A stretch of DNA of 64,000 nucleotides. It comes from a virus. Both the position numbers and the translations under genes were made by a program. Location: positions 64,001 to 128,000 of IMG/VR virus record IMGVR_UViG_3300020477_000001. One strand, written 5' to 3'. Below the pieces are notes generated by a model. The model did no database searches, had not been told where the DNA came from, and saw nothing but the letters and a program-made list of their open reading frames with translations. Shown here in pieces: positions 29,897 through 61,207 of this stretch; positions within the stretch are counted from its first letter, which is position 1; each line of letters opens with the position of its first letter.

Positions 29897-30130
29897 ATGA
29901 AAGACATCAAAGCACTCCACGACAGGATAAACCTACTCAACGAGTCCATACTGTTTGCCGACAAAGAAATCGACAGGTGTGCCACAGAGCTAGAAAAAAT
30001 CGAAGTACTACCAGACACAGATTACATAATGGCTAAAAGAGAAAAGTTTGTTAATTGTGTGACACTCATGTTCAAAAGGGTTAGGATGGATAAAGAAGAA
30101 CTCAGAAAAATAGAGAAGTCTCTTGGATAA
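29897..30130 (+). CDS. hypothetical protein
   Basis: ORF after sigma70-like promoter. Confidence 0.5.
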   Translation: MKDIKALHDRINLLNESILFADKEIDRCATELEKIEVLPDTDYIMAKREKFVNCVTLMFKRVRMDKEELRKIEKSLG

Positions 30131-30743
30131 AGACTTAACCCAATTACCGGAAAAAAATCTAGTCGCCCTCTCAAAAAAGGGCGACTGTTTTGCGTTTGAG
30201 GAGCTACTCAAAAGAAATAAAGATTTAGTTTTCGCCACCATTATCAGAAGACTCACGACAATAAGGCTCCCCCACATCAACAGAGGCAGTTCAGACGAAG
30301 AAGACATTTTTAGCATCTCGTCGTTTAAAGCTTGGAAGAATATAAAAAAGTTCAAAGGAGACTCCAAGTTTTCTACTTGGTTAACCCGTATAGCGATAAA
30401 TGAGATCACAGATGAAACCAGAAAAAATCTTAGAAAGCACTCACTCTCCCTCGACTCCCTAATTGAATCCACTGGAGACAAATCTGCGCTTCAATATTGC
30501 GAACAATCAACCAACCAAGCATTCGACAATTTATCGCATAAAGATATCAGAAAAATTTACGAAAAAGCTTTAACCAAATTATCCCCACAGCAAAGAATGG
30601 CGATCCATCTTTTTGTAAACGATGGTTTAACCTACGGAGAGATTTCTAAGGTCTGCTGCGTCCCAATAGGGACAATAATGTCTAGGCTTTTCTATTCTAG
30701 AAAAAAACTAAAAAAAGAAATAGAATTGCTTCTCAATAAATAA
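30123..30743 (+). CDS. ECF (RpoE-like) RNA polymerase sigma factor
   Basis: AFEEL, FKGDSKFSTWLTRIAIN region 2, GLTYGEIS...PIGTIMSRLFYSRKKL region 4. Confidence 0.9.
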   Translation: MDKDLTQLPEKNLVALSKKGDCFAFEELLKRNKDLVFATIIRRLTTIRLPHINRGSSDEEDIFSISSFKAWKNIKKFKGDSKFSTWLTRIAINEITDETRKNLRKHSLSLDSLIESTGDKSALQYCEQSTNQAFDNLSHKDIRKIYEKALTKLSPQQRMAIHLFVNDGLTYGEISKVCCVPIGTIMSRLFYSRKKLKKEIELLLNK

Positions 30744-42639: not shown

Positions 42640-42780
42640 GTGAGAATACAACCGACAACCCCCATAACCCCCATGAATTCTAACGACAAAAAATCCTGTC
42701 AATGTGGCTGCGGCTGTAAAACTTGCAATGATAGCTGCTCTTGTAAAGAGGGTTGTTCTTGCAAAAAACAAGAGGAATAA
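42640..42780 (+). CDS. metallothionein-like Cys-rich peptide (not in ORF track)
   Basis: GTG 42640 or ATG 42673 to TAA 42780: MNSNDKKSCQCGCGCKTCNDSCSCKEGCSCKKQEE; GTGTAATT motif just upstream. Confidence 0.6.
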   Translation: MRIQPTTPITPMNSNDKKSCQCGCGCKTCNDSCSCKEGCSCKKQEE

Positions 42781-43801: not shown

Positions 43802-43880
43802 TTGATATTATAACAATGTATACTATATTGTGGTGGCTTTCTGTGTTGGGTTGTTTCAAGAGCACAGTCGTCGCCAGTGA

Positions 43881-43913
43881 AGGGAGCGGGCTTTTGCCCG
43901 CTCTCTTTTTTTT
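43881..43913 (+). terminator. intrinsic terminator insulating the RNA-guided effector unit
   Basis: AGGGAGCGGGC TTTT GCCCGCTCTCT followed by T-run. Confidence 0.75.
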
Positions 43914-43922
43914 AAAAACTTC

Positions 43923-43951
43923 TTGACCGAAATTAAAAAACCATATAGCAT
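43923..43951 (+). promoter_or_regulatory. sigma70-type phage promoter for scaffold RNA and effector
   Basis: TTGACC-gaaaTTAAAAAAccata(17)-TAGCAT; predicted +1 near 43958. Confidence 0.7.
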
Positions 43952-43957
43952 AATCCC

Positions 43958-44120
43958 CAGTCGCTAACAGACTGCTACGGTGGGTTGCACCGGAAGGGGA
44001 GGGAAACCTCCAAATGCCGAATAGGTATGGTTCGCTTGCGAAGCAGATTCGGAAAGTTCCTAGGGGTCAACGGGGGGAGGATCATCCCGATCCTCCTCCC
44101 GCCCCCAAACCCTACAACAC
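43958..44120 (+). ncRNA. putative tracr/omega-like scaffold RNA of the TnpB/Cas12f-like effector
   Basis: Hairpins CAGTC/GACTG, CGGTG-GGTTG-CACCG, GGAGG-GAAA-CCTCC, CCGAAT/ATTCGG enclosing TTCG-CTTG-CGAA, long GC stem 44071-44101; ends in repeat-like CTACAACAC. Confidence 0.7.
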
Positions 44121-44129
44121 ATCTTTAAA

Positions 44130-45638
44130 ATGAAAAAAAAATCTAAACTTCAAAAGGTTGAACAAGAAACTATTCCTGTTAAATACCGAATCTACCCAAA
44201 CCTTAAGCAACGCAAATACCTTGACAGATGCTTTCTTTCCAGCCGAATCGTATGGAACTGGCTGCTAGGAGTACAGAAAGATTATGACCGTGGTCTTACT
44301 GAATGGGTAAAAGAAAAGTATGCCAAAGAGCTACAGAAATTCTGCAAGAAAGAAGGCTTCGAATTAAGCAGTCCATTTGAGCACGAAAAAATAAAAGAAT
44401 TAAAAAAAGGAGAAGCGAAAAAATTTCACACGGAAGTCATTCGCCTCAAGAAGGAGGAAGTTTTCCCCTCTGTCTTAGGGATAGAACTCCTTAAAGCCAT
44501 TATTCCTAATGCAGAAGAAGACGAAATCAAGAAGATGATAGTCAACAAAAAGAATCCTTCCGCTTCTAACAAGACTATCAACATCATGGACTTAAAAAGG
44601 CAAGTAAAAAACCTTCGAGAAGATAAACCAATCTTAAACCAAGTCGCATCCCAAGGAATCCATCACGTACCGCTTAACCTAGCTAAAGCTTGGAAGGCGT
44701 GCTACGACAAGAACCGCCCAGATTCCGGTGAGCCTAAATTCAAGAACAAATTCGCGAAGCAGTCATTCACTTTTGACACAGCAAAGCTTCAAGGAAATAA
44801 GTTATTCCTCCCGCCTAAAAGCAAAAACATTTTCATTAAAACAAAAGTCCATCGAGAGATGGAGGGTGAGCAAAAAACAATTACTGTTACTAAAAGCAAA
44901 ACAGGAGAATACTACGCCTCAGTTAACTTTAGGCAAGATGTATTCTTCCCGAAGCCCAAAAGTTTTAGTAAATCGAGCACGGTTGGCATTGACCTAGGAA
45001 TTAAAGATGACTACATCATTATGTCTAACGACATGGGGTCAATCAAAAACCCAAAATTTTTCAAGAAGCATGAGCGCAAAATCGCAATGCTAAATCGAAA
45101 ATTATCGCGCTCCCAGCCGAATAGCAATTCACGCAACAAAGTTCTACACGAGCTTAACCGCGAGTACGAGAAGCTCTCTAAAGCAAGGGAAGATTTTCAG
45201 CATAAGGTAACACACCAGATCGTAACTAACCCAAACATCAAGGCGGTGGCTGTCGAGGACTTGAATGTGAAGGGCATGACAGCTAAGAACAAACCAAAGG
45301 AGGGCGAAAATGGCCACTACTTACCAAACAATCAGTGCGCCAAACGAGGACAAAACAAAGCCACTCTGGACGCTGGGTTTGGAAGAGTTAGGCAGATGCT
45401 TGACTACAAATGTAAGCGCAATGGCAAAACGTTTGGAAAAGTTGACAGGTTCTTTGCATCCTCCAAAACATGCAACAACTGCGGTCATATCAATAAAGAG
45501 CTCAAAGTTTCCGACCAGTACTGGACCTGCGAAAAATGTGGCGAGCATCACGAGAGGAACTTTAATGCGGCAAATAACGTGCGAGATGAATTTATACGCG
45601 CAAGCAAGCAGAAAAAGAAAACCAAGAACTCGAAATAA
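44130..45638 (+). CDS. tnpB: TnpB/Cas12f-like RNA-guided protein, RuvC-III Asp replaced by Asn
   Basis: YRIYP...SRIVWNW N-terminus, GIDLG (D288), VEDL (E376), SSKTC..C, C..C zinc ribbon, HERNFNAANN (N477); no tnpA nearby. Confidence 0.85.
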   Translation: MKKKSKLQKVEQETIPVKYRIYPNLKQRKYLDRCFLSSRIVWNWLLGVQKDYDRGLTEWVKEKYAKELQKFCKKEGFELSSPFEHEKIKELKKGEAKKFHTEVIRLKKEEVFPSVLGIELLKAIIPNAEEDEIKKMIVNKKNPSASNKTINIMDLKRQVKNLREDKPILNQVASQGIHHVPLNLAKAWKACYDKNRPDSGEPKFKNKFAKQSFTFDTAKLQGNKLFLPPKSKNIFIKTKVHREMEGEQKTITVTKSKTGEYYASVNFRQDVFFPKPKSFSKSSTVGIDLGIKDDYIIMSNDMGSIKNPKFFKKHERKIAMLNRKLSRSQPNSNSRNKVLHELNREYEKLSKAREDFQHKVTHQIVTNPNIKAVAVEDLNVKGMTAKNKPKEGENGHYLPNNQCAKRGQNKATLDAGFGRVRQMLDYKCKRNGKTFGKVDRFFASSKTCNNCGHINKELKVSDQYWTCEKCGEHHERNFNAANNVRDEFIRASKQKKKTKNSK

Positions 45639-45649
45639 TTTTTGCCCAA

Positions 45650-45703
45650 GTGGCTGGCGGCGGCAGAGACTTTTATCTCTTCGGTCCTTGCTCCGCCAGC
45701 CAC
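45650..45703 (+). terminator. long GC-rich hairpin after the effector gene
   Basis: GTGGCTGGCGG...CCGCCAGCCAC followed by ATTTT. Confidence 0.45.
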
Positions 45704-45839
45704 ATTTTAAAATAAATAAAAATGAAAAGCGACAATCCAAACCGAGGCAACGGCAAGCACATTCATAAGTCACCAATCAATATGGACAATCCACAAAAAA
45801 AAGAGGATAGTGACTGGTGGGCAGAATTGTGTAAAAAAC

Positions 45840-46412
45840 ATGGAGCAAAAAACGCTTGGAAAAAAGAGAACAAAAAGAAGGTATGACTACGCTCATGGCT
45901 CTGAATCAGCAGTGATCGCCAGAGATGAATACCTCGAAAGAATAAAATGGAAGCCGCACGAATATGAAGTCATAAAAAACAATTACAATAATCATTCTGA
46001 TGCGGAAATAAGCCTCAAGTTCCTGCCTCACCGCACACCCGAATCAATAAGAAGATGTAGGCGCTCAATGAAATGTCACAGAAAGCCGAGCCACCAAATT
46101 TGGACAGAAGAAGAATTAGAATTACTGTATATCCATTGGAGAGACTACGACCAGAGGGAGCTTAAGGAAAAATTCTTCCCAAACAAAACCGTTGAGCAGG
46201 TTAGGAATGCTAAAATGCATCGCGGGCTAAAGAAGCCCCCAGTCTGGACCAATGAAGAGAGAGGCTTGCTGATAGACCACGGAGCGAACTATGACAGAGG
46301 ACAGCTACAGAAGCTGTTTTTCCCAAATAAAACCAAGGACCAAATAAGCCACATGAGAAAGCACCTCGGAATCAGAAGAAACCTAGGCGATAAAGAGATT
46401 AAAAAAGTGTAA
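45840..46412 (+). CDS. Myb/SANT-like repeat protein
   Basis: Three ~48-aa repeats: W.P.E..., WTEEE.ELL...FP.KT..Q, WTNEE..LL...FP.KT..Q. Confidence 0.65.
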   Translation: MEQKTLGKKRTKRRYDYAHGSESAVIARDEYLERIKWKPHEYEVIKNNYNNHSDAEISLKFLPHRTPESIRRCRRSMKCHRKPSHQIWTEEELELLYIHWRDYDQRELKEKFFPNKTVEQVRNAKMHRGLKKPPVWTNEERGLLIDHGANYDRGQLQKLFFPNKTKDQISHMRKHLGIRRNLGDKEIKKV

Positions 46413-46742: not shown

Positions 46743-47177
46743 ATGAGGAAAAACAAGATTTCATTAGTAAGCGGCGGATTTGATCCAATTCACGTTGGAC
46801 ACATAGAACTCTTTAACAGGGCTAGAGAAATCTCTGACGGGCTATTCGTGATCTTGAATAGTGATAGGTTCCTCACAGAAAAGAAGGGCAAGCCCTTCAT
46901 GCAGCAACCAGAAAGAAAAGTCATTATTGAAAACTTACAGATGGTTGACTTGGTTATACCTTCAATAGACGAAGACCAAACGGTTTGTGCTACCCTGCGA
47001 AAACTAGCTAGCCTCAAGGACGCAGTTGACTCTGAATTATATTTCTGCAATGGTGGAGACAGGACGGACGGCGAGAACACGCCAGAACACAAAGTCTGCG
47101 AAGAAGTCGGAATACACAACGTTTATGGATTAGGTGAAAAAATCCAAAGCAGTAGTTGGCTTACGAAAGGGAACTGA
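46743..47177 (+). CDS. cytidyltransferase-like (HIGH) protein
   Basis: SGGFDPIHVGH, NGGDR, KIQSSSWL. Confidence 0.8.
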   Translation: MRKNKISLVSGGFDPIHVGHIELFNRAREISDGLFVILNSDRFLTEKKGKPFMQQPERKVIIENLQMVDLVIPSIDEDQTVCATLRKLASLKDAVDSELYFCNGGDRTDGENTPEHKVCEEVGIHNVYGLGEKIQSSSWLTKGN

Positions 47178-47199
47178 AACACATAAAATCACCGTCGCG

Positions 47200-47751
47200 A
47201 TGAAGAATTTAACCTGCGATAGCAAGAAGGGGAGAGAGTATGAAGCTCACGAAGAGAAAGCTATACTCTATATACAAGAGAAAAGAAATGTTGTAATAAC
47301 CTCTACGAGGTCAGAGCTCAATGAGGAATCAAAAATCCTAGAACAAGATATCTTAATCTCCAAAAAAGATGAAAGAGGAATCTTCAGACTAAGGGCGGTA
47401 GGCGAATTTAAGAACAGGAATGAATTCAAAAGAGGCTCTGGAATCCCGTTGACGCTAGAGAAGCTAAAAGGAGATAGACCTAATGACGGCTACATGATTA
47501 GCCTCAGAAAGCTAAAGAGTGGCCAAGCAATGTCTACGTCCCTAAAGGTTCCTTTCGTTGTTATTGTTAATTTAATGAATGATAAATACATTCTCTGCTG
47601 GAAGCTGACCAACGAGAAAGGTCAATGGGTTAAAAGACCGGAATCACTCAAACAAGAGACGCAGAAGAACATTGCAGGGGGAAATAAGCTTGACGACGTA
47701 GTTTATCTTAAATTATCAGAAACAGCTTTTCAACTTGAAAAAAACTACTAA
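47200..47751 (+). CDS. putative PD-(D/E)XK-like nuclease
   Basis: QDILI...VGEFKNR. Confidence 0.4.
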   Translation: MKNLTCDSKKGREYEAHEEKAILYIQEKRNVVITSTRSELNEESKILEQDILISKKDERGIFRLRAVGEFKNRNEFKRGSGIPLTLEKLKGDRPNDGYMISLRKLKSGQAMSTSLKVPFVVIVNLMNDKYILCWKLTNEKGQWVKRPESLKQETQKNIAGGNKLDDVVYLKLSETAFQLEKNY

Positions 47752-50340: not shown

Positions 50341-50508
50341 TGATAACGCCCCCGAAGATCATAGGTTTTATATGGGTAGCATTCTTAACACTGTTTTACT
50401 TCTTCGCCTCAATAGCTGTTTTTATTGTTACTTCAATCGCTAATATTTTTAAAAAAGAATAAATAAAAAACCTTGACTAAAGTTAAAAAACTCTCTATTA
50501 TATTACCC

Positions 50509-51390
50509 ATGAAGAGAATTGATACTTATTTCGCAAAAGAGTACGAGGCAGACACACCCACTGCCTCTATGCGTAAGTTGCGCCCAGTGGCTGAAGCAGC
50601 TAGTGCTGCTGGTTACGCAAACATCTTGAAGACATCCTCCAGCGAAGGCGTTAGCGACAAGCTAAAAAAAATTCACAATGCAGATTACGTGGAAGCCTTC
50701 TCTAACGGTACTTATCCGCTCAGCGAAAGCAATGGATGGGGCTGGAGCAAAGAGATTAGGGACGGCGTTTTCAGAATTAACACAGGGCAGCTTGACGCTG
50801 CTAAAGCTGCGTTAAGCAACGGCATTGCAGCAAATGTAGCGCAGGGGTTTCACCATGCTGGAATCGAAAGAGGCTGCGGTTATTGTACCTTCAATGGGTT
50901 AGCACTAGTCGCTAATGAATACAAGACCAAGAAAGTATTCGTTTTAGACTGCGATGAGCATGGAGGCAATGGTACGGCTGAGTTTACCAACATACTGGAC
51001 AACTTATCGCAGGTAACCATCAACGGCTCTAATTTCGGAACCGAAGAGAACCCCCGCAGCCGATGCATTACTCTTCCTCGAATCACTAACCGATTTGAGC
51101 TTTACGAAGATGCACTGGAAGAAGGCTTCTCTATAATGGATAGGTTCGAGCCCGACTTGGTTATCTACCAAGCTGGTGCTGATCCTCACATTGACGATCC
51201 CTTGGGCTCTCTGGGTATGACAACCGAACAAATGTACAACAGAGACAAGAAAGTATTTACGAAGCTCAAAGCTTCAAATATACCGACAATGTTCGTACTG
51301 GCGGGGGGCTATCAAACCCCGATTGAGGAAAAACTTGTACCGCTGCACTTGAACACCTTCAAGGCTGCTCACGAAGTATACAACAATTAA
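50509..51390 (+). CDS. histone deacetylase family (Zn-dependent deacetylase)
   Basis: GFHHA, GYCTFN, LDCDEHGGNGT, QAGADP..DDPLG, LAGGY. Confidence 0.88.
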   Translation: MKRIDTYFAKEYEADTPTASMRKLRPVAEAASAAGYANILKTSSSEGVSDKLKKIHNADYVEAFSNGTYPLSESNGWGWSKEIRDGVFRINTGQLDAAKAALSNGIAANVAQGFHHAGIERGCGYCTFNGLALVANEYKTKKVFVLDCDEHGGNGTAEFTNILDNLSQVTINGSNFGTEENPRSRCITLPRITNRFELYEDALEEGFSIMDRFEPDLVIYQAGADPHIDDPLGSLGMTTEQMYNRDKKVFTKLKASNIPTMFVLAGGYQTPIEEKLVPLHLNTFKAAHEVYNN

Positions 51391-51435
51391 AGGAACAACA
51401 ACACAGCACCAAAGATACTATCTCCGTAGCATACT

Positions 51436-54815: not shown

Positions 54816-55682
54816 TGCAAAAGCCAGACAACAAAATGAAGCGCTGGCTAAACTCTCAGACCAAAGATTTAAAAAAAATTAATTTTAATTCTCTGGTAAA
54901 TTCATTCAAAGACAAGTTTAAGGTCAGTATCAACGATGCTCGTATGTACGTGATGCAATGGGACCACGACAGAAACAAGCATTAAACCGCCGTATTAGAT
55001 GCTTGACATATATTAAAAAACTCCTTATCATATATCTACAGACATACCTTAAGATATATATAGGAACAAACAATGGACTTAATATTTGCGGCAATAGTGA
55101 TATACTTCTTCTGCTTTGCTTTTAAGCAGCTAGTCAAGGATTTGTAAATCGAGGGGGAGCTACAACACAACAAATTGTGAAAACAATAGCCCTGTTTTTA
55201 CGAGCTTTTTACACATTTTTTAAAACACTCACAGTGAACTACAACACTATAAGCTAGTATGGAACTAATAAACACAATAAAGCATTTCAAAAGAATAAAA
55301 TAAAATATTGAAGTGTATTAAAATGGGTTAATGTGGGGTGCATATTATATATATATCCGTCAAGCATTAAATTTAAAAACTATTCACATATTTATTAACA
55401 CTGAAACCACGTCAAGCAAAAACAACAAAAAACAATAAAAAACTTATTAATATTTTCTAAGTCAAGAAAAAACAAACAAAAACTTAAAAAATTATTATTG
55501 ACTATATAGCAAATATATGGGCTTAAAACCAAGAAAAGAAGGAGAAGCAAAAAGAATAGCAACATACATAATATTAATCATATATGGAATTGTTATACTT
55601 ATAGTTTATCTATTAAATAAATTATTTTCTTGACACAGATAAATGGAATTAAAACACAATAAAGAATAGAGGGTTTTTTTTG

Positions 55683-55792
55683 TTGACTTAACTTAAATAA
55701 ATTAGTATAATGTTTCCAAAGGGGCTTCATCACAACAAAGGTAAGATTTTTCTTGACTTAAGTTAAATAATATATTAAAATTTTCCAAAGGG
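55683..55792 (+). promoter_or_regulatory. tandem near-duplicate sigma70 promoters upstream of the repeat field
   Basis: TTGACTtaacttaaataaattagTATAATgtttccaaaggg and TTGACTtaagttaaataatatatTAAAATtttccaaaggg. Confidence 0.7.
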
Positions 55793-56101
55793 ATTTTTTT
55801 TATTTTTTTTAATTCTTATAATAGGAATTATTTTTTTCTTGACAAGTAAATAATGTTTCTTATTCTTATTATGCTTAAGGAGCTACACCACGTTATTAAC
55901 ACCAACGTACACGGAACTACACCACCCATTTGCCGACGATTGATTTTTAAGGAACTAAAGCACGGATTCGAACTCACGTCTGGAACTACGACACCCATTT
56001 ACCAAGGAGCCGCAACACGTCGAATGCAGTGGTATATTTGTGAACGCAATCGAGCCAAATAATAGGAACTAAATACACGAGGTCGGGAGTTCAGAAAAGC
56101 C

Positions 56102-56130
56102 TTGACTCATCTTAAAAAACTCTTCATAAT
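56102..56130 (+). promoter_or_regulatory. promoter of the CRISPR array
   Basis: TTGACT-catcTTAAAAAActctt(17)-CATAAT. Confidence 0.7.
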
Positions 56131-56226
56131 AGTCCCCAGATTAAGAAACTGATCTTTGACATAGGCACTGCAACACACGAGGCCAAAGACATTCAAGGGA
56201 CTACAACACAACATTATGGTATTCCT

Positions 56227-56777
56227 TAGCAATTTAAGGGACTGCAACACAGTAAGGCGATTATAACATCGCGCTCGACGGTTCGCACTGGTACTAATTT
56301 AAGGGACTGCAACACTGCAACCATGCTAACTAACGTGGTTACACAGCTTCGCACTGGTAGCAATTTAAGGGACTGCAACACTGTTACACACATCGCTGCG
56401 ATGAAGCGGCGGCTTCGCACTGGTACAGATTTTAGGGACTGCAACACCGTATCAGAACGAGATATCGTCCCGCCTTGGGCTTCGCACTGGTAGCAATTTA
56501 AGGGACTGCAACACTTAGTCGAACCGCATAACGTCGAGTGTCTGCTTCGCACTGATAGCAATTTAAGGGACTGCAACACAATGAGGCAGATAATGGAAGG
56601 GGTAGCTAGCTTCGCACTGATAGCAATTTAAGGGACTGCAACACAAAACTGCACCAACAGGAAGCGGAATCACAGTTTTGCACTGGTACTAATTTAAGGG
56701 ACTGCAACACAAGGGGTGACGTAGTGGAAGCGACCACATAAGCTTCGCACTGGTACAGATTTTAGGGACAACAACAC
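56227..56777 (+). CRISPR. CRISPR array: 8 full 36-nt repeats plus 1 partial, 8 spacers of 29-31 nt
   Basis: Consensus GCTTCGCACTGGTAGCAATTTAAGGGACTGCAACAC at 56280, 56346, 56412, 56479, 56544, 56609, 56675, 56742; unique spacers. Confidence 0.93.
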
Positions 56778-56797
56778 AGTAAAGAACCCTACGTACA

Positions 56798-57659
56798 TAT
56801 TTGTGAATGATTTTTGGACAAATAAAGGAACAACAACACTGAATCTCTAGGCGATATTTGTGAATGATTTTAAGGCAAATAAAGGGAACTACAACACTCT
56901 GTTAAAGTCCGTCCAACACGAGGCGGCGAGAATTGATGCCGATCAAAATACTTAATTATTGATTGACTAATTTTTTTGTCGCTCATTTGTGAACGTCAAA
57001 GAGGCAAATAATATAGGGGAATTAAATTAGATATTTTAGATTAATAGGGACTAATTAAACACGATGCTCAATCCCAATATTGTTAATTTATGAATGATTT
57101 TTTGCCAAATAAGGGTTATTTAACATAAGGGAATTTCGTATACAAGAAAAATGTTGCCCCGGAGAAAACACCCCCTTATAAGAAATATATTAAAGGAACT
57201 AAAACACAACAAAAGTGATGAAGAATTTAATTTTAATTATTATTATTTTAATTATTACTGGTTGTTATACAGCCAAGGAAAGAGTAATGCCTCTTGGTCC
57301 CCATGATGATAGCTATGGTAAGAATTGGGTAAGTAATTAAGGAACTGTAACACCAAATCCAGCATGGCGTTTAGATATTTTGGGAACTAAAACACGGGTA
57401 TAGCTCATTTGAAATAGGAACTAGAACACATGTGGTGCGCCATTATATTTGTGAACGCGATTTTTGCAAATAAAGGAACTACAACACCAGCGGTTTCAGA
57501 AGCTATCTGTGAACGCGATTTTTGCAAATAAAGGAACTACAACACCCGTCATGGAATTATAACACTAACTCCTCAGATGGAACTACAACACGTTGAGATA
57601 CTGCTTTCGCGGGAGCTATCTGTGAACACAATTTTTGCAAATATAGGGAACTACAACAC
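56798..57659 (+). repeat. second repeat class: hairpin TATTTGTGAA..TTTTGCAAATA followed by GGAACTACAACAC
   Basis: Copies near 56035, 56798, 56856, 57446, 57504, 57617; degenerate copies near 56984 and 57085. Confidence 0.75.
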
Positions 57660-57890
57660 GACGGGAACTCACGACGGAGAGTTAATCAAGGAACAACAAC
57701 ACGAAAACTTTTTCTGTATTCTTGATCTTGTAATGGAACTACAACACTCAAGGGCGGCTCATTTTAATTTAAAATAAAAAAGGGAACTACGACACTTGCT
57801 ATTATTAATTGTATCTTTAATTAGTGTAATTATTATTGTCTATAAGTTTTTATTGACTGTAATTAAATTGCTCTATATAAAAGGATACAC

Positions 57891-58127
57891 ATGAAAAAAA
57901 AGAAACTATCCCCGCAAGCCCAAATATACGAGAAGGCTTGGAACGACGTAGTGTCCGAAATGAGTGACCATAAAAGAAATATTATTATTAATAATTTTAC
58001 TGTTGTCAGTGGTCATCATGTATATGAGAATAAATATGATCAAAGGGTAGCAGATGAAGCAGCTAAGGAAGCCCGTATACGAGGTGACCAACAAATAGAA
58101 GCACTGTTTCCAACTGGCAAGTATTAA
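57891..58127 (+). CDS. hypothetical protein
   Basis: ORF with promoter and AAGGA SD; mini-repeat follows the stop. Confidence 0.55.
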   Translation: MKKKKLSPQAQIYEKAWNDVVSEMSDHKRNIIINNFTVVSGHHVYENKYDQRVADEAAKEARIRGDQQIEALFPTGKY

Positions 58128-58278
58128 AGGTACTACAACACGAGCGGGCACTACAGTGGTAGGAACAACAACACAGTCCCCTGCTATAATCTATGGAACT
58201 AAAGCACGAGTGCATATAGTAGAAAAAAATAAAAAAAAATAATTGACTTAAATTAAAAAAAACTTCATACTGGTCGCC

Positions 58279-60405: not shown

Positions 60406-60633
60406 ATGAAGAAGTCTCACTGGAAAGAAGGTCTTGAAATACCCAAGCCACCAAAGGGAATCACTCACGCCCAAATAAAGTGTGGCAAGAAGAAGTCTAC
60501 CGTAACTATAAACGACTTCGACACTTTCCGAGGGGTAGAGGGAATGGTGCGCTGGGGTAAGCAAAAGAAGAACAGTAAAACAATTGAATTAATAGGAGAA
60601 GAATTCTTTTGGGACGGATTTAAAGTAGAATAG
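60406..60633 (+). CDS. hypothetical protein
   Basis: ORF; its stop overlaps a mini-repeat. Confidence 0.5.
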   Translation: MKKSHWKEGLEIPKPPKGITHAQIKCGKKKSTVTINDFDTFRGVEGMVRWGKQKKNSKTIELIGEEFFWDGFKVE

Positions 60634-61207
60634 GAACTACAACACAACATAATATTCGCGACTCGCAAGGGAACTACAACACGTTCAAGGACTTGGTATA
60701 AAAATTTCCTCCCAAACCGTGGGCTATCCCAACCCCACACCGGAGTCGATGGAATAGAGGCGGAAGAGAGCTCCGCACTAGCGATGGGGATATCGCTACG
60801 TTTAACACCATCGGCTCCTTGACTTCTTTCAAATAACCTCGTATACTAATACCAGCAAACCAAATAATACAATTTTATCTTTCCTGTATTATTGAAAGTT
60901 CAAACTTCTTAATGTCTCTATGCAATTTAGGGACAACTTCTGCCCTTCATCGGCAAACAAAAATGAATCAAATAACACCAAATAAAAGCGAACCATATAC
61001 GAACAAATAATAGACAAATAAAATAGATATAAGAATATAAGAATATAAAATTTGGCGGGTGACCCTATAATAATAGAACAACAATTGTTAATAACTTTTT
61101 AATAATGTTAATAATTTTTTCTTGACTTAAACATACAGAAAAACGGAATAACAATTATTTTTTTCTTGACAAGCAAAATCGTGTAGAAAATTTTTTATAT
61201 TTTTTTG

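What the first reader, a model, noticed from the sequence alone, without database searches (positions are those of the whole stretch)
44130..45638. Effector likely nuclease-impaired: RuvC-III RD to RN (N477), plus a large N-terminal insertion
SEEN: RuvC-I D288 (GIDLG) and RuvC-II E376 (VEDL) are intact, but the canonical H(D)RDxNAAxN reads HERNFNAANN (codon AAC, 45558-60). The protein is roughly 100 aa longer than typical IS605 TnpB, with extra helical sequence after the N-terminal HTH-like segment. KNOWN: nuclease-dead TnpB/Cas12 derivatives act as RNA-guided transcription regulators (TldR, Cas12m, sigmaE-associated dCas12f). INFERENCE: the phage may use it to silence or activate host or competitor genes rather than cut. 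Short guides in the mini-repeat field (often 11-21 nt) fit binding without cleavage. Caveat: AAC is one base from GAC.
Basis: partly seen in the sequence, partly recalled or inferred. Interest (0 to 1): 0.8.

Follow-up and report, generated by a model that had tools for sequence, protein, structure and literature searches.

The report
Phage Cas12-like effector with altered nuclease site
A marine phage carries a CRISPR-linked, TnpB-derived RNA-guided protein whose DNA-cutting centre has lost two of its charged residues in every known member of its lineage, so it most likely binds rather than cuts DNA, though this has not been tested.

Summary
ORF 44130-45638 encodes a 502-aa TnpB-family protein. 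N477 (AAC, 45558-45560) aligns with catalytic D361 of ISDra2 TnpB, while D288 and E376 are intact.

The Asn is not an error or a recent mutation:
- All 51 clade sequences that include this region have Asn, down to 39% identity, using both AAC and AAT codons.
- 258 of 259 other relatives have Asp.
- The exact protein recurs on 14 contigs.

I also found two co-substitutions. The TNB-domain Arg (98% conserved) is Gln463, and the Asp two residues upstream is Glu475.

The gene is not decaying. dN/dS is 0.03, and the RuvC and zinc-finger motifs are its most conserved parts.

The protein is a CRISPR effector, not a transposon gene. It has a conserved upstream scaffold RNA and 36-nt-repeat arrays in every sufficiently long locus. 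A sister lineage with the same system keeps Asp.

Array spacers turn over quickly, whereas guides behind bare 13-nt cores are conserved between distant phages. No targets were found.

Best reading (about 0.55): an RNA-guided DNA binder that cleaves poorly or not at all, working like Cas12m. A rearranged but active nuclease remains possible (about 0.25). The proposed ECF sigma link has no support.

The same system was noted earlier in this scan, on this genome only.

The parts
43879..43908 (+). Terminator-like hairpin with T-run that closes the upstream transcription unit
   Evidence: Consensus scan, 13-pair stem.
43923..43951 (+). Sigma-70-type promoter-like site in front of the scaffold RNA and effector
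   Evidence: TTGACC-17-TAGCAT, 9 of 12 matches. The same position holds a TTGAC-type site in homologous loci. Function is inferred only.
43958..44129 (+). Conserved structured scaffold (tracrRNA/omega-RNA-like) RNA directly upstream of the effector, ending in a repeat-like ...CAACAC handle
   Evidence: Alignable across six loci, including the Asp sister lineage. 12 of 38 predicted pairs keep pairing through changes on both sides.
44130..45638 (+). Effector gene: 502-aa TnpB-derived, CRISPR-associated (type V-like) protein
44286..44564 (+). REC-domain insertion (residues ~53-145), helical
   Evidence: Absent from ordinary TnpBs in A1. Predicted helices, pLDDT 82-95. It is the least conserved part of the protein, at 0.41 identity.
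44991..44993 (+). RuvC-I Asp288 codon (intact)
   Evidence: Aligns with ISDra2 D191. Invariant in 269 of 269 sequences.
45255..45257 (+). RuvC-II Glu376 codon (intact)
   Evidence: Aligns with ISDra2 E278. Present in 268 of 269 sequences.
45285..45353 (+). 23-aa insertion after RuvC-II (residues 386-408)
   Evidence: Shared with RdCas12n (PDB 9J09) and a subset of TnpBs.
45471..45539 (+). CCCC zinc finger of the TNB domain (C448, C451, C467, C470), intact
   Evidence: Invariant or nearly invariant columns.
45516..45518 (+). Gln463 codon (CAG) at the position of the near-universal TNB-domain Arg
   Evidence: Arg in 98% of 259 relatives, including ISDra2 TnpB and RdCas12n. It is Gln in 9 and His in 1 of 10 clade representatives, and Lys in the Asp sister.
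45552..45554 (+). Glu475 codon, two residues before the altered catalytic position
   Evidence: Asp in 240 of 259 relatives and Glu in 10 of 10 clade representatives.
45558..45560 (+). Asn477 codon (AAC) at the RuvC-III catalytic Asp position
45650..45705 (+). G+C-rich hairpin after the stop codon, probably the terminator of the effector unit
   Evidence: Read from the sequence. Conserved with compensating changes in L007-L009. Not scored by the consensus scan.
56215..56777 (+). Canonical CRISPR-like array: 36-nt repeats ending GGGACTGCAACAC, period ~65, spacers ~29-31 nt
   Evidence: Homologous arrays lie directly beside the effector gene in L001, L006, L169-L172 and L004.
55156..58174 (+). 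Field of bare 13-nt cores (GGRACTRCAACAC-like) and hairpin-type repeats, each followed by a short guide. It surrounds the canonical array. Further units lie at 47170, 51392 and 60633-60682.
   Evidence: 35 matches against 0.14 expected, 34 of them on the + strand. The 5' parts of the guides are conserved between distant phages.

Best explanation
The gene encodes the effector of a phage-borne type V-like CRISPR system derived from TnpB. Its partners are a conserved scaffold RNA encoded just upstream and guides that follow a 13-nt handle. These guides sit either in a regular 36-nt-repeat array or as dispersed mini-units. In this lineage the RuvC centre has been specifically remodelled. The metal-binding Asp of RuvC-III is Asn477, the TNB-domain Arg is Gln463, and the Asp two residues upstream is Glu475. 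D288, E376, the zinc finger and the rest of the pocket are kept under strong purifying selection. The most likely consequence is that RNA-guided DNA binding is retained while cleavage of the target DNA is lost or strongly reduced. The phage would then interfere with its targets by occupancy, blocking transcription or replication as Cas12m does. The preserved half of the active site would serve a non-cleaving role, such as metal-mediated holding of the displaced strand or RNA handling.

Shown here: the substitutions, their fixation, the selection on the gene, and the CRISPR and scaffold-RNA association.

Inferred: loss of cleavage, the binding mode, and the role of the retained residues.
For: - N477 aligns with ISDra2 D361.
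- Asn is present in 51 of 51 clade sequences, with AAC and AAT codons, against Asp in 258 of 259 relatives.
- A second active-site-region residue is lost: Arg to Gln463. In Cas12f an arginine of the same Nuc/TNB domain sits in the RuvC site, and its alanine mutant does not cleave (PMC8053092).
- Mutating any residue of the DED triad abolishes TnpB cleavage, according to the literature summarised in 10.1101/2023.11.30.569447.
- Related effectors with non-canonical triads bind without cutting: Cas12m2 has an HDD triad, and the Cas12m clades include NED and DND forms (PMC10442227; PMC11013384).
- The sister lineage P0122, with the same array and scaffold RNA, keeps Asp, so the change is a derived, lineage-specific state needing only one change on the tree.
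- The gene is functional: dN/dS is 0.03 at dS of about 1.
- It is CRISPR-associated and holds a fixed syntenic place in diverged phages.
- Conserved mini-guides were seen only in loci of the Asn clade.
Against: - No cleavage or binding data exist.
- Only one of the three triad residues is changed, and Asn can still ligate a metal.
- Glu475, perfectly co-substituted, could supply a carboxylate. Published screens for dead TnpBs excluded single-residue cases because catalytic residues can sit at alternate positions.
- Altae-Tran et al. argue that conserved specific replacements often keep nuclease activity.
- The RuvC-I, RuvC-III and TNB motifs are the most conserved parts of the protein (0.74-0.76 identity against 0.57 overall; RuvC-II 0.66). 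This differs from the decaying, truncated sites of TldR and dCas12f.
- I could not verify structurally that Q463 is equivalent to Cas12f R490.
- No target of any guide was found, so the mode of interference is untested.
Confidence: 0.55

Rival explanations
1. The protein is still a DNA nuclease with a rearranged RuvC-III. Glu475, alone or with Asn477, takes over metal binding, perhaps with changed metal preference, rate or strand preference (for example a nickase or slow cutter). The system is then an ordinary cleaving anti-competitor CRISPR system.
For: - The Asp-to-Glu change at position -2 is strictly coupled to the Asp-to-Asn change (10 of 10 clade representatives).
- D288, E376 and the zinc finger are invariant and the pocket is the most conserved region.
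- Selection is strong on the RuvC half (dN/dS 0.029).
- Hypervariable array spacers are typical of interference systems.
- The literature warns about alternate catalytic positions and about conserved replacements that keep activity.
Against: - The -2 position is already acidic (Asp) in 93% of canonical relatives and is not counted among their catalytic residues. Asp to Glu there is therefore a conservative change rather than a new carboxylate.
- No other clade-specific acidic residue appears in the RuvC/TNB half, apart from a loop Asp shared with the Asp sister.
- The conserved TNB Arg is lost as well.
Confidence: 0.25
2. The RuvC site is kept mainly for RNA work. It would release the many guide units from long phage transcripts, including units embedded between genes, while target DNA is only bound.
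For: - Dozens of handle-plus-guide units lie in intergenic stretches of co-directional genes and would need processing.
- Bare 13-nt cores offer little duplex for RNase III.
- The RuvC pocket is under strong constraint despite the Asn.
Against: - In Cas12m, pre-crRNA processing is RuvC-independent (PMC11013384).
- An Asn at a metal ligand would impair RNA hydrolysis too.
Confidence: 0.12
3. The protein works as an RNA-guided transcription activator together with the phage ECF-type sigma factor at 30123-30743, as in dCas12f-sigmaE.
For: The ORF at 30123-30743 has sigma-70 regions 2 and 4_2. Related phage contigs also encode sigma factors within 5-7 kb of the effector.
Against: - The defining operonic adjacency of rpoE and dcas12f, and the C-terminal truncation of the effector (PMC13472631), are both absent.
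- The sigma gene is 14 kb away on the other side of unrelated genes.
- Sigma genes are common in large phages.
- No interaction was tested.
Confidence: 0.04
4. N477 is a sequencing error, an assembly artefact or a recent inactivating mutation in a decaying IS605-type tnpB.
For: AAC is one base from GAC.
Against: - The identical protein occurs on 14 contigs from independent sources.
- Asn is present in 51 of 51 clade sequences with two codons.
- dN/dS is 0.03.
- No tnpA was seen nearby, and the gene holds a fixed syntenic position in diverged phages.
Confidence: 0.01

Closest known systems
IS200/IS605 TnpB (ISDra2, ISFba1)
   Same: Best structural matches (Foldseek TM 0.78-0.84 by target) and the best family scores. 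The domain order is the same: WED/HTH-like, REC, RuvC, CCCC zinc finger, RuvC-III.
   Different: There is no transposase and the gene is not mobile. It is associated with CRISPR arrays. The scaffold RNA lies upstream of the gene rather than overlapping its 3' end. The REC domain is enlarged by ~93 aa. The RuvC-III motif reads ERN instead of DRD, and the TNB Arg is Gln.
Cas12n (type V-N, formerly V-U4; RdCas12n, PDB 9J09)
   Same: Second-best solved-structure sequence hit (E 1.6e-31) and it shares the insertion after RuvC-II. The best PADLOC model is Cas12u4 at 215 bits. Size is similar and the catalytic residues sit at nearly the same positions (D287/E386/D484 against D288/E376/N477; PMC12216341). 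It uses a tracrRNA plus crRNA.
   Different: Cas12n has an intact DED triad and cleaves dsDNA. Its tracrRNA region overlaps the ORF. The characterised members named in the paper come from Rothia and Actinomadura, not phages. The profile score is barely above generic Cas12f and TnpB models, so membership is not established.
Cas12m (type V-M)
   Same: A small TnpB-like CRISPR effector with naturally non-canonical RuvC triads (HDD, HEK, NED, DND). It interferes by tight DNA binding and transcriptional silencing without cleavage, and the remaining site residues hold the displaced strand through one Mg ion. This is the functional model proposed here.
   Different: Sequence relation is only distant (E about 1e-5, C-terminal part only). 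Cas12m needs no tracrRNA. Its altered positions are RuvC-I and/or RuvC-II, whereas here RuvC-III is changed. Cas12m is host-encoded.
TldR (TnpB-like nuclease-dead repressors)
   Same: A TnpB derivative with an altered RuvC triad, often carried by prophages, that uses adjacent guide RNAs to bind DNA and repress genes.
   Different: [quoted passage not shown] They have single fixed guides and no CRISPR arrays. Here the C-terminus is complete and highly conserved, and arrays are present.
dCas12f-sigmaE RNA-guided transcription system
   Same: A nuclease-altered small type V relative, and a sigma-70-family ECF-like gene is present in the same genome.
   Different: There is no operonic linkage to the sigma gene, no C-terminal truncation, and the promoters are sigma-70-like rather than the Bacteroidetes context of that system.

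Membership tests
TnpB superfamily (RNA-guided endonuclease TnpB family) | Sequence match to curated family models above cutoff | tested here: met
   NCBIfam NF040570 scores 227.7 bits against a cutoff of 100. Pfam PF12323, PF01385 and PF07282 are all above their gathering scores.
TnpB superfamily (RNA-guided endonuclease TnpB family) | Intact D-E-D RuvC triad | tested here: not met
   D288 and E376 are present. The third position is Asn477 in the whole clade.
IS200/IS605 transposon-borne TnpB | Location in a mobile IS element with tnpA and/or transposon ends, and an omega RNA overlapping the 3' end of the gene | tested here: not met
   No TnpA-type gene appears among the called neighbours. The gene has a fixed syntenic position (Hydrolase_2 gene upstream, Thy1/CTP-transferase genes downstream) in phages 68-95% identical. 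The conserved RNA lies upstream. NF038281 scores 220 bits, below its cutoff of 425.
Type V CRISPR effector (Cas12 in the broad sense) | TnpB-like RuvC protein genomically linked to a CRISPR array | tested here: met
   Arrays of 36-nt repeats with ~30-nt spacers lie 10.6 kb downstream in the window and immediately beside the gene in L001, L006, L169-L172 and L004.
Type V CRISPR effector (Cas12 in the broad sense) | Spacer turnover between related genomes | tested here: met
   Loci with effectors at least 90% identical share no canonical spacers (L006 against L169). L172 retains 2 of the 6 spacers of L169.
Cas12n (V-N / V-U4) | Sequence membership | tested here: inconclusive
   PADLOC Cas12u4 is the best model at 215 bits, but Cas12f (203) and Cas12u2 (182) are close and there is no curated cutoff. 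RdCas12n aligns only over residues 300-495.
Cas12n (V-N / V-U4) | DED triad with dsDNA cleavage, and a tracrRNA region overlapping the ORF | tested here: not met
   The triad is DEN and the scaffold RNA is upstream of the ORF. Cleavage itself cannot be tested with these tools.
Cas12m (V-M) | Sequence membership and crRNA-only guide | tested here: not met
   Only weak C-terminal similarity (E 1e-5 to 4e-4). A conserved scaffold RNA is present, whereas Cas12m lacks a tracrRNA.
Cas12m (V-M) | Binding without cleavage | not testable with these tools
   This requires biochemical or in vivo assays.
TldR | Deteriorated RuvC, often with C-terminal truncation, and a single adjacent fixed guide targeting a promoter | tested here: not met
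   One triad residue is changed, the C-terminus and zinc finger are complete and conserved, and arrays are present. Conserved mini-guides exist but their targets are unknown.
dCas12f-sigmaE | Operonic adjacency of the effector gene and rpoE, and a C-terminally truncated effector | tested here: not met
   The sigma gene is 14 kb upstream and the effector is full length.

The most novel reading that the evidence does not exclude
A family of ~160-kb marine phages has turned a TnpB-derived CRISPR nuclease into a binding-only, RNA-guided DNA regulator. The conversion came from a coupled Asp-to-Asn and Arg-to-Gln change in the active site. The phages program the protein with two kinds of guides. One is a fast-evolving CRISPR array directed against rivals. 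The other is a set of evolutionarily fixed mini-guides scattered between phage genes and directed at conserved external (host or competitor) sequences. This would amount to a phage-encoded natural CRISPRi system for takeover or exclusion.
Probability: 0.3. Interest if true: 0.88.

Novelty: new variant of a known kind. Interest (0 to 1): 0.72.

Why it matters
Naturally cleavage-deficient TnpB and Cas12 derivatives (Cas12k, Cas12m, Cas12c, TldR, dCas12f) each revealed a new use of RNA-guided DNA binding, and each supplied a compact tool.

This lineage would add three things:
- A phage-borne case with a different lesion (D-E-N plus loss of the TNB Arg).
- An otherwise intact, strongly constrained pocket.
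- A close Asp-bearing sister with the same RNA partners, which makes a natural matched pair for asking what the third carboxylate and the Arg do.

The split between hypervariable spacers and conserved mini-guides suggests that one effector serves both adaptive and hard-wired targeting. If the protein turns out to cleave, it would be a documented example of a tolerated or rearranged RuvC-III. That would matter for bioinformatic screens that call "dead" nucleases from the triad alone.

Tried and rejected
- **Protospacer searches.** All failed.
  - blastn of the window and L001 arrays against 50,697 phage records gave only chance-level hits.
  - Three exact 22-mers from canonical spacers found nothing in IMG/VR.
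  - One conserved mini-guide 21-mer found nothing in the GTDB species genomes.
- **Repeat search.** A repeat-consensus pattern found no such arrays in the GTDB species genomes.
- **gp8 lead.** A degenerate mini-guide pattern hit gp8 baseplate genes of T4-like cyanophages in IMG/VR. I rejected it for three reasons:
  - About 1.7 chance hits were expected.
  - The variable guide positions are not the wobble positions of the gp8 reading frame.
  - Guides match six cultured cyanophage gp8 genes at only 12-16 of 20-21 positions.
- **Self-targeting.** No seed-anchored matches of any guide occur in the phage's own 158-kb genome beyond expectation.
- **More clade members.** Scans of IMG/VR and JGI metagenomes returned only ordinary TnpBs at 40% identity or less.
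- **Host or close cultured relative.** The RecA-like protein has at most 29% identity to isolates, and relatives cannot be drawn for a virus record.
- **Read support and RNA ends.** Recurrence of the exact protein on 14 contigs was used instead.
- **Compensating acidic residue.** None was found other than Glu475.
- **Effector-sigma complex prediction.** Not run, because I do not claim that they bind.
Full report
**What is there.** ORF 44130-45638 (+) is open and encodes 502 aa.
- It carries the three Pfam domains of TnpB-type proteins and passes the NCBIfam model for RNA-guided TnpB-family endonucleases. It does not pass the models for IS200/IS605 TnpB, IS607 TnpB or C2c8.
- Against solved structures, the ISDra2 TnpB alignment places D288, E376 and N477 on D191, E278 and D361. 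These are the catalytic triad of that enzyme (PMC10097598).
- The codon at 45558-45560 is AAC.
- Compared with ordinary 390-415-aa TnpBs, the protein has about 93 extra residues (53-145) directly after the HTH-like segment, and 23 extra residues after RuvC-II.
- An AlphaFold2 model built on a 50-sequence alignment is confident (mean pLDDT 90.4) and shows the first insertion as additional REC helices.
- Foldseek finds TnpB structures as the closest folds, followed by Fanzor2, Cas12p, TranC, Cas12f and Cas12m.

**Is the Asn real and fixed?** A search of 5.8 billion proteins found nine full-length relatives at 39-95% identity, then thousands of ordinary TnpBs that lack the REC insertion.
- All ten clade representatives read E-R-N at RuvC-III.
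- Of 55 clade sequences checked (the ten representatives plus listed members of six 90%-identity clusters), all 51 that include this region have Asn.
- The Asn codon is AAC in the window and L007 but AAT in L001 and L002.
- The exact window protein is recorded on 14 contigs from NCBI, JGI, ENA, Logan and Tara.
- A profile search of 1.84 billion cluster representatives found only one further full-length relative of the same architecture, P0122 (41% identity), and it has Asp.
- In a maximum-likelihood tree, P0122 and the Asn sequences form a clade with 100/100 support. One Asp-to-Asn change is enough to explain the distribution, although monophyly of the Asn group against P0122 is only weakly supported at 68/57.

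The substitution is an old, lineage-wide state.

**More than one residue has changed.** I listed the columns conserved in at least 85% of the 259 relatives and asked what the Asn clade has there. Three of the differences lie in or next to the active-site motifs.
- Asp to Asn at 477.
- Asp to Glu at 475 (Asp in 240 of 259 relatives, Glu in 10 of 10 clade representatives).
- Arg to Gln at 463 (Arg in 98% of relatives; Gln in nine and His in one of the clade representatives; Lys in P0122).

The Arg lies in the TNB zinc-finger domain, two residues before the conserved Trp. It is present in ISDra2 TnpB and RdCas12n in the alignments. In Cas12f an arginine of the same domain (R490) sits in the RuvC site opposite the acidic triad, and its alanine mutant does not cleave (PMC8053092). 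I could not verify residue-level structural equivalence, so this link is an inference.

No other clade-specific acidic residue appears in the RuvC/TNB half, apart from a loop Asp that the Asp-bearing sister also has.

**The site is not decaying.**
- Within the Asn clade, RuvC-I, RuvC-III and the zinc-finger region are the most conserved segments (0.74-0.76 identity to the window protein). RuvC-II is at 0.66, the overall value is 0.57 and the REC insertion is at 0.41.
- D288, E376 and the four Cys are invariant.
- dN/dS between the window gene and its 95%-identical relative is 0.03 at dS of about 1, and 0.029 for the RuvC/TNB half alone.

This differs from TldR and dCas12f, whose triads deteriorate and whose C-termini are often truncated. 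Whatever the altered pocket does, it is still selected.

**What system it belongs to.** The gene is not in an IS element.
- Its neighbours (an S24-type peptidase gene, a cell-wall hydrolase gene upstream, Thy1 or cytidylyltransferase genes downstream) are the same in contigs whose effectors are 68-95% identical.
- Members of the other subclade sit on contigs of about 158-161 kb, like the 158-kb genome of the window.
- A structured RNA gene directly upstream is alignable across all lineages, including P0122. 12 of 38 predicted pairs keep pairing through changes on both sides.
- Arrays of 36-nt repeats with spacers of about 30 nt lie at 56215-56777 in the window. They lie directly next to the effector gene in L001, L006, L169-L172 and L004.

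This is a type V-like CRISPR system carried by uncultured marine phages. The nearest named subtype is Cas12n (V-U4/V-N):
- RdCas12n is the second-best solved-structure hit and shares the insertion after RuvC-II.
- The PADLOC Cas12u4 model scores best.
- Its catalytic residues D287/E386/D484 fall at almost the same positions.

Membership is not established. The score margins over generic models are small, Cas12n has a DED triad, and its tracrRNA region overlaps the ORF. [quoted passage not shown]

**Guides.** The 13-nt core GGRACTRCAACAC occurs 35 times in the window against 0.14 expected, with 34 copies on the + strand. Comparing loci gave a result that bears on function.
- Spacers behind full repeats are completely different between loci whose effectors are at least 90% identical, and one locus has lost four of six.
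- Guides behind bare cores are conserved in their first 10-14 nt between subclades whose effectors share only about 42% identity. There are nine anchored 12-mer pairs with at least 10 matches, none in an offset control, and a mean of 0.15 in shuffles.
- The order of these units differs between genomes, so this is not simple synteny.
- The 13.7-kb locus of the Asp sister shows only regular repeats. That is a single locus.
- None of the guides has a seed-anchored match in the phage's own genome, and no external target was found.
- A hit of one degenerate guide pattern in cyanophage gp8 genes proved to be at chance level and in the wrong reading frame.

**How it most likely works.** In the two-metal RuvC mechanism, metal B is held by the RuvC-I and RuvC-II residues (PMC10442227). 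By standard knowledge of RNase H-fold enzymes, not tested here, the RuvC-III Asp together with the RuvC-I Asp holds metal A, which activates the nucleophile.
- Cas12m2 has an HDD triad. It keeps metal A, loses metal B, does not cleave, and uses the remaining site to hold the displaced strand.
- Other Cas12m clades carry NED or DND triads, and binding without cleavage is general in that family.
- The triad here, D-E-N with loss of the TNB Arg, is the mirror case.

I therefore consider a binding-competent effector that cleaves poorly or not at all the best reading (about 0.55). It would interfere by occupancy, and the preserved half-site would serve strand holding or RNA handling.

The main rival (about 0.25) is a rearranged but active site using Glu475. 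Two sources warn explicitly against calling single-residue variants dead, and the strong conservation of the pocket fits this rival equally well. Against it, position 475 is already acidic in canonical enzymes, and the Arg is lost too.

A RuvC kept mainly for guide processing is possible but unsupported. A partnership with the sigma factor fails both defining features of the known dCas12f-sigmaE system.

**Verdict.** The finding is real and stronger than reported. The Asn is fixed and selected, and it is accompanied by loss of a second conserved active-site-region residue, in the effector of a bona fide phage CRISPR system that has a matched Asp-bearing sister lineage. The functional claim, binding instead of cutting and regulation of host or competitor genes, remains a well-motivated hypothesis. 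This is a new variant of a known kind: a naturally nuclease-altered type V/TnpB effector. The same locus was noted by other first-stage notes of this scan, on this genome only.

Noticed in passing
window 55156-58174 compared with L001, L006, L169-L172: There are two classes of guide units. Spacers behind full 36-nt repeats turn over completely between near-identical effectors. Guides behind bare 13-nt cores (for example GTTATYAAYAC, CCATTTRCC, GTCGAATGCA, TGAATCTYYARG, AGTCYCCTGCT) are conserved between subclades with only ~42% identical effectors.
   Followed up: partly
window 51392-51435 and genome position 134317-134335 (outside the window, minus strand): The 31-nt stretch between the bare core at 51392 and the next start codon shares an exact 19-mer with the region just upstream of a minus-strand ATG 19 kb beyond the window's end (82.9 kb from the core). 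BLAST E is 1e-5, but the match begins at guide position 6, not at the seed.
   Followed up: partly
L004:3580-4180 and L004:4424-5926: The Asp-bearing sister effector P0122 has its regular 10-repeat array upstream of the scaffold RNA and gene. It shows no dispersed bare cores in 13.7 kb, unlike all Asn-clade loci. This rests on one locus only.
   Followed up: partly
L169:6455-6973 (also L170-L172): A gene with a Pfam PF26128 Gad2 domain lies about 1 kb downstream of the array in subclade-B phages.
   Followed up: no
window 42640-42780 (+): A 46-aa Cys-rich ORF (repeated C-x-C and C-x-x-C) resembling a small metallothionein, 1.3 kb upstream of the effector unit.
   Followed up: no
window 50473-51390 (+): A phage gene with a histone-deacetylase-family domain (Pfam PF00850, E 9e-32), immediately followed by a bare-core guide unit.
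   Followed up: no
window 45810-46412 (+): The 200-aa ORF directly downstream of the effector has an internally repeated sequence and a sub-threshold Myb-like DNA-binding match (21.4 bits against a cutoff of 24.4).
   Followed up: no
P0004 and P0005 (L002:2345-2548): The N-terminal ~68-aa extensions of these database proteins are gene-calling artefacts. The ORF call runs through the conserved scaffold RNA upstream of the true start.
   Followed up: yes
window 47170-47200 and 57195-57230: Two bare cores sit 10-17 nt upstream of ORFs that begin with the same ATGAAGAATTTAA. Several cores lie just upstream of start codons, including the scaffold RNA's own 3' handle 9 nt before the effector ATG.
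   Followed up: no
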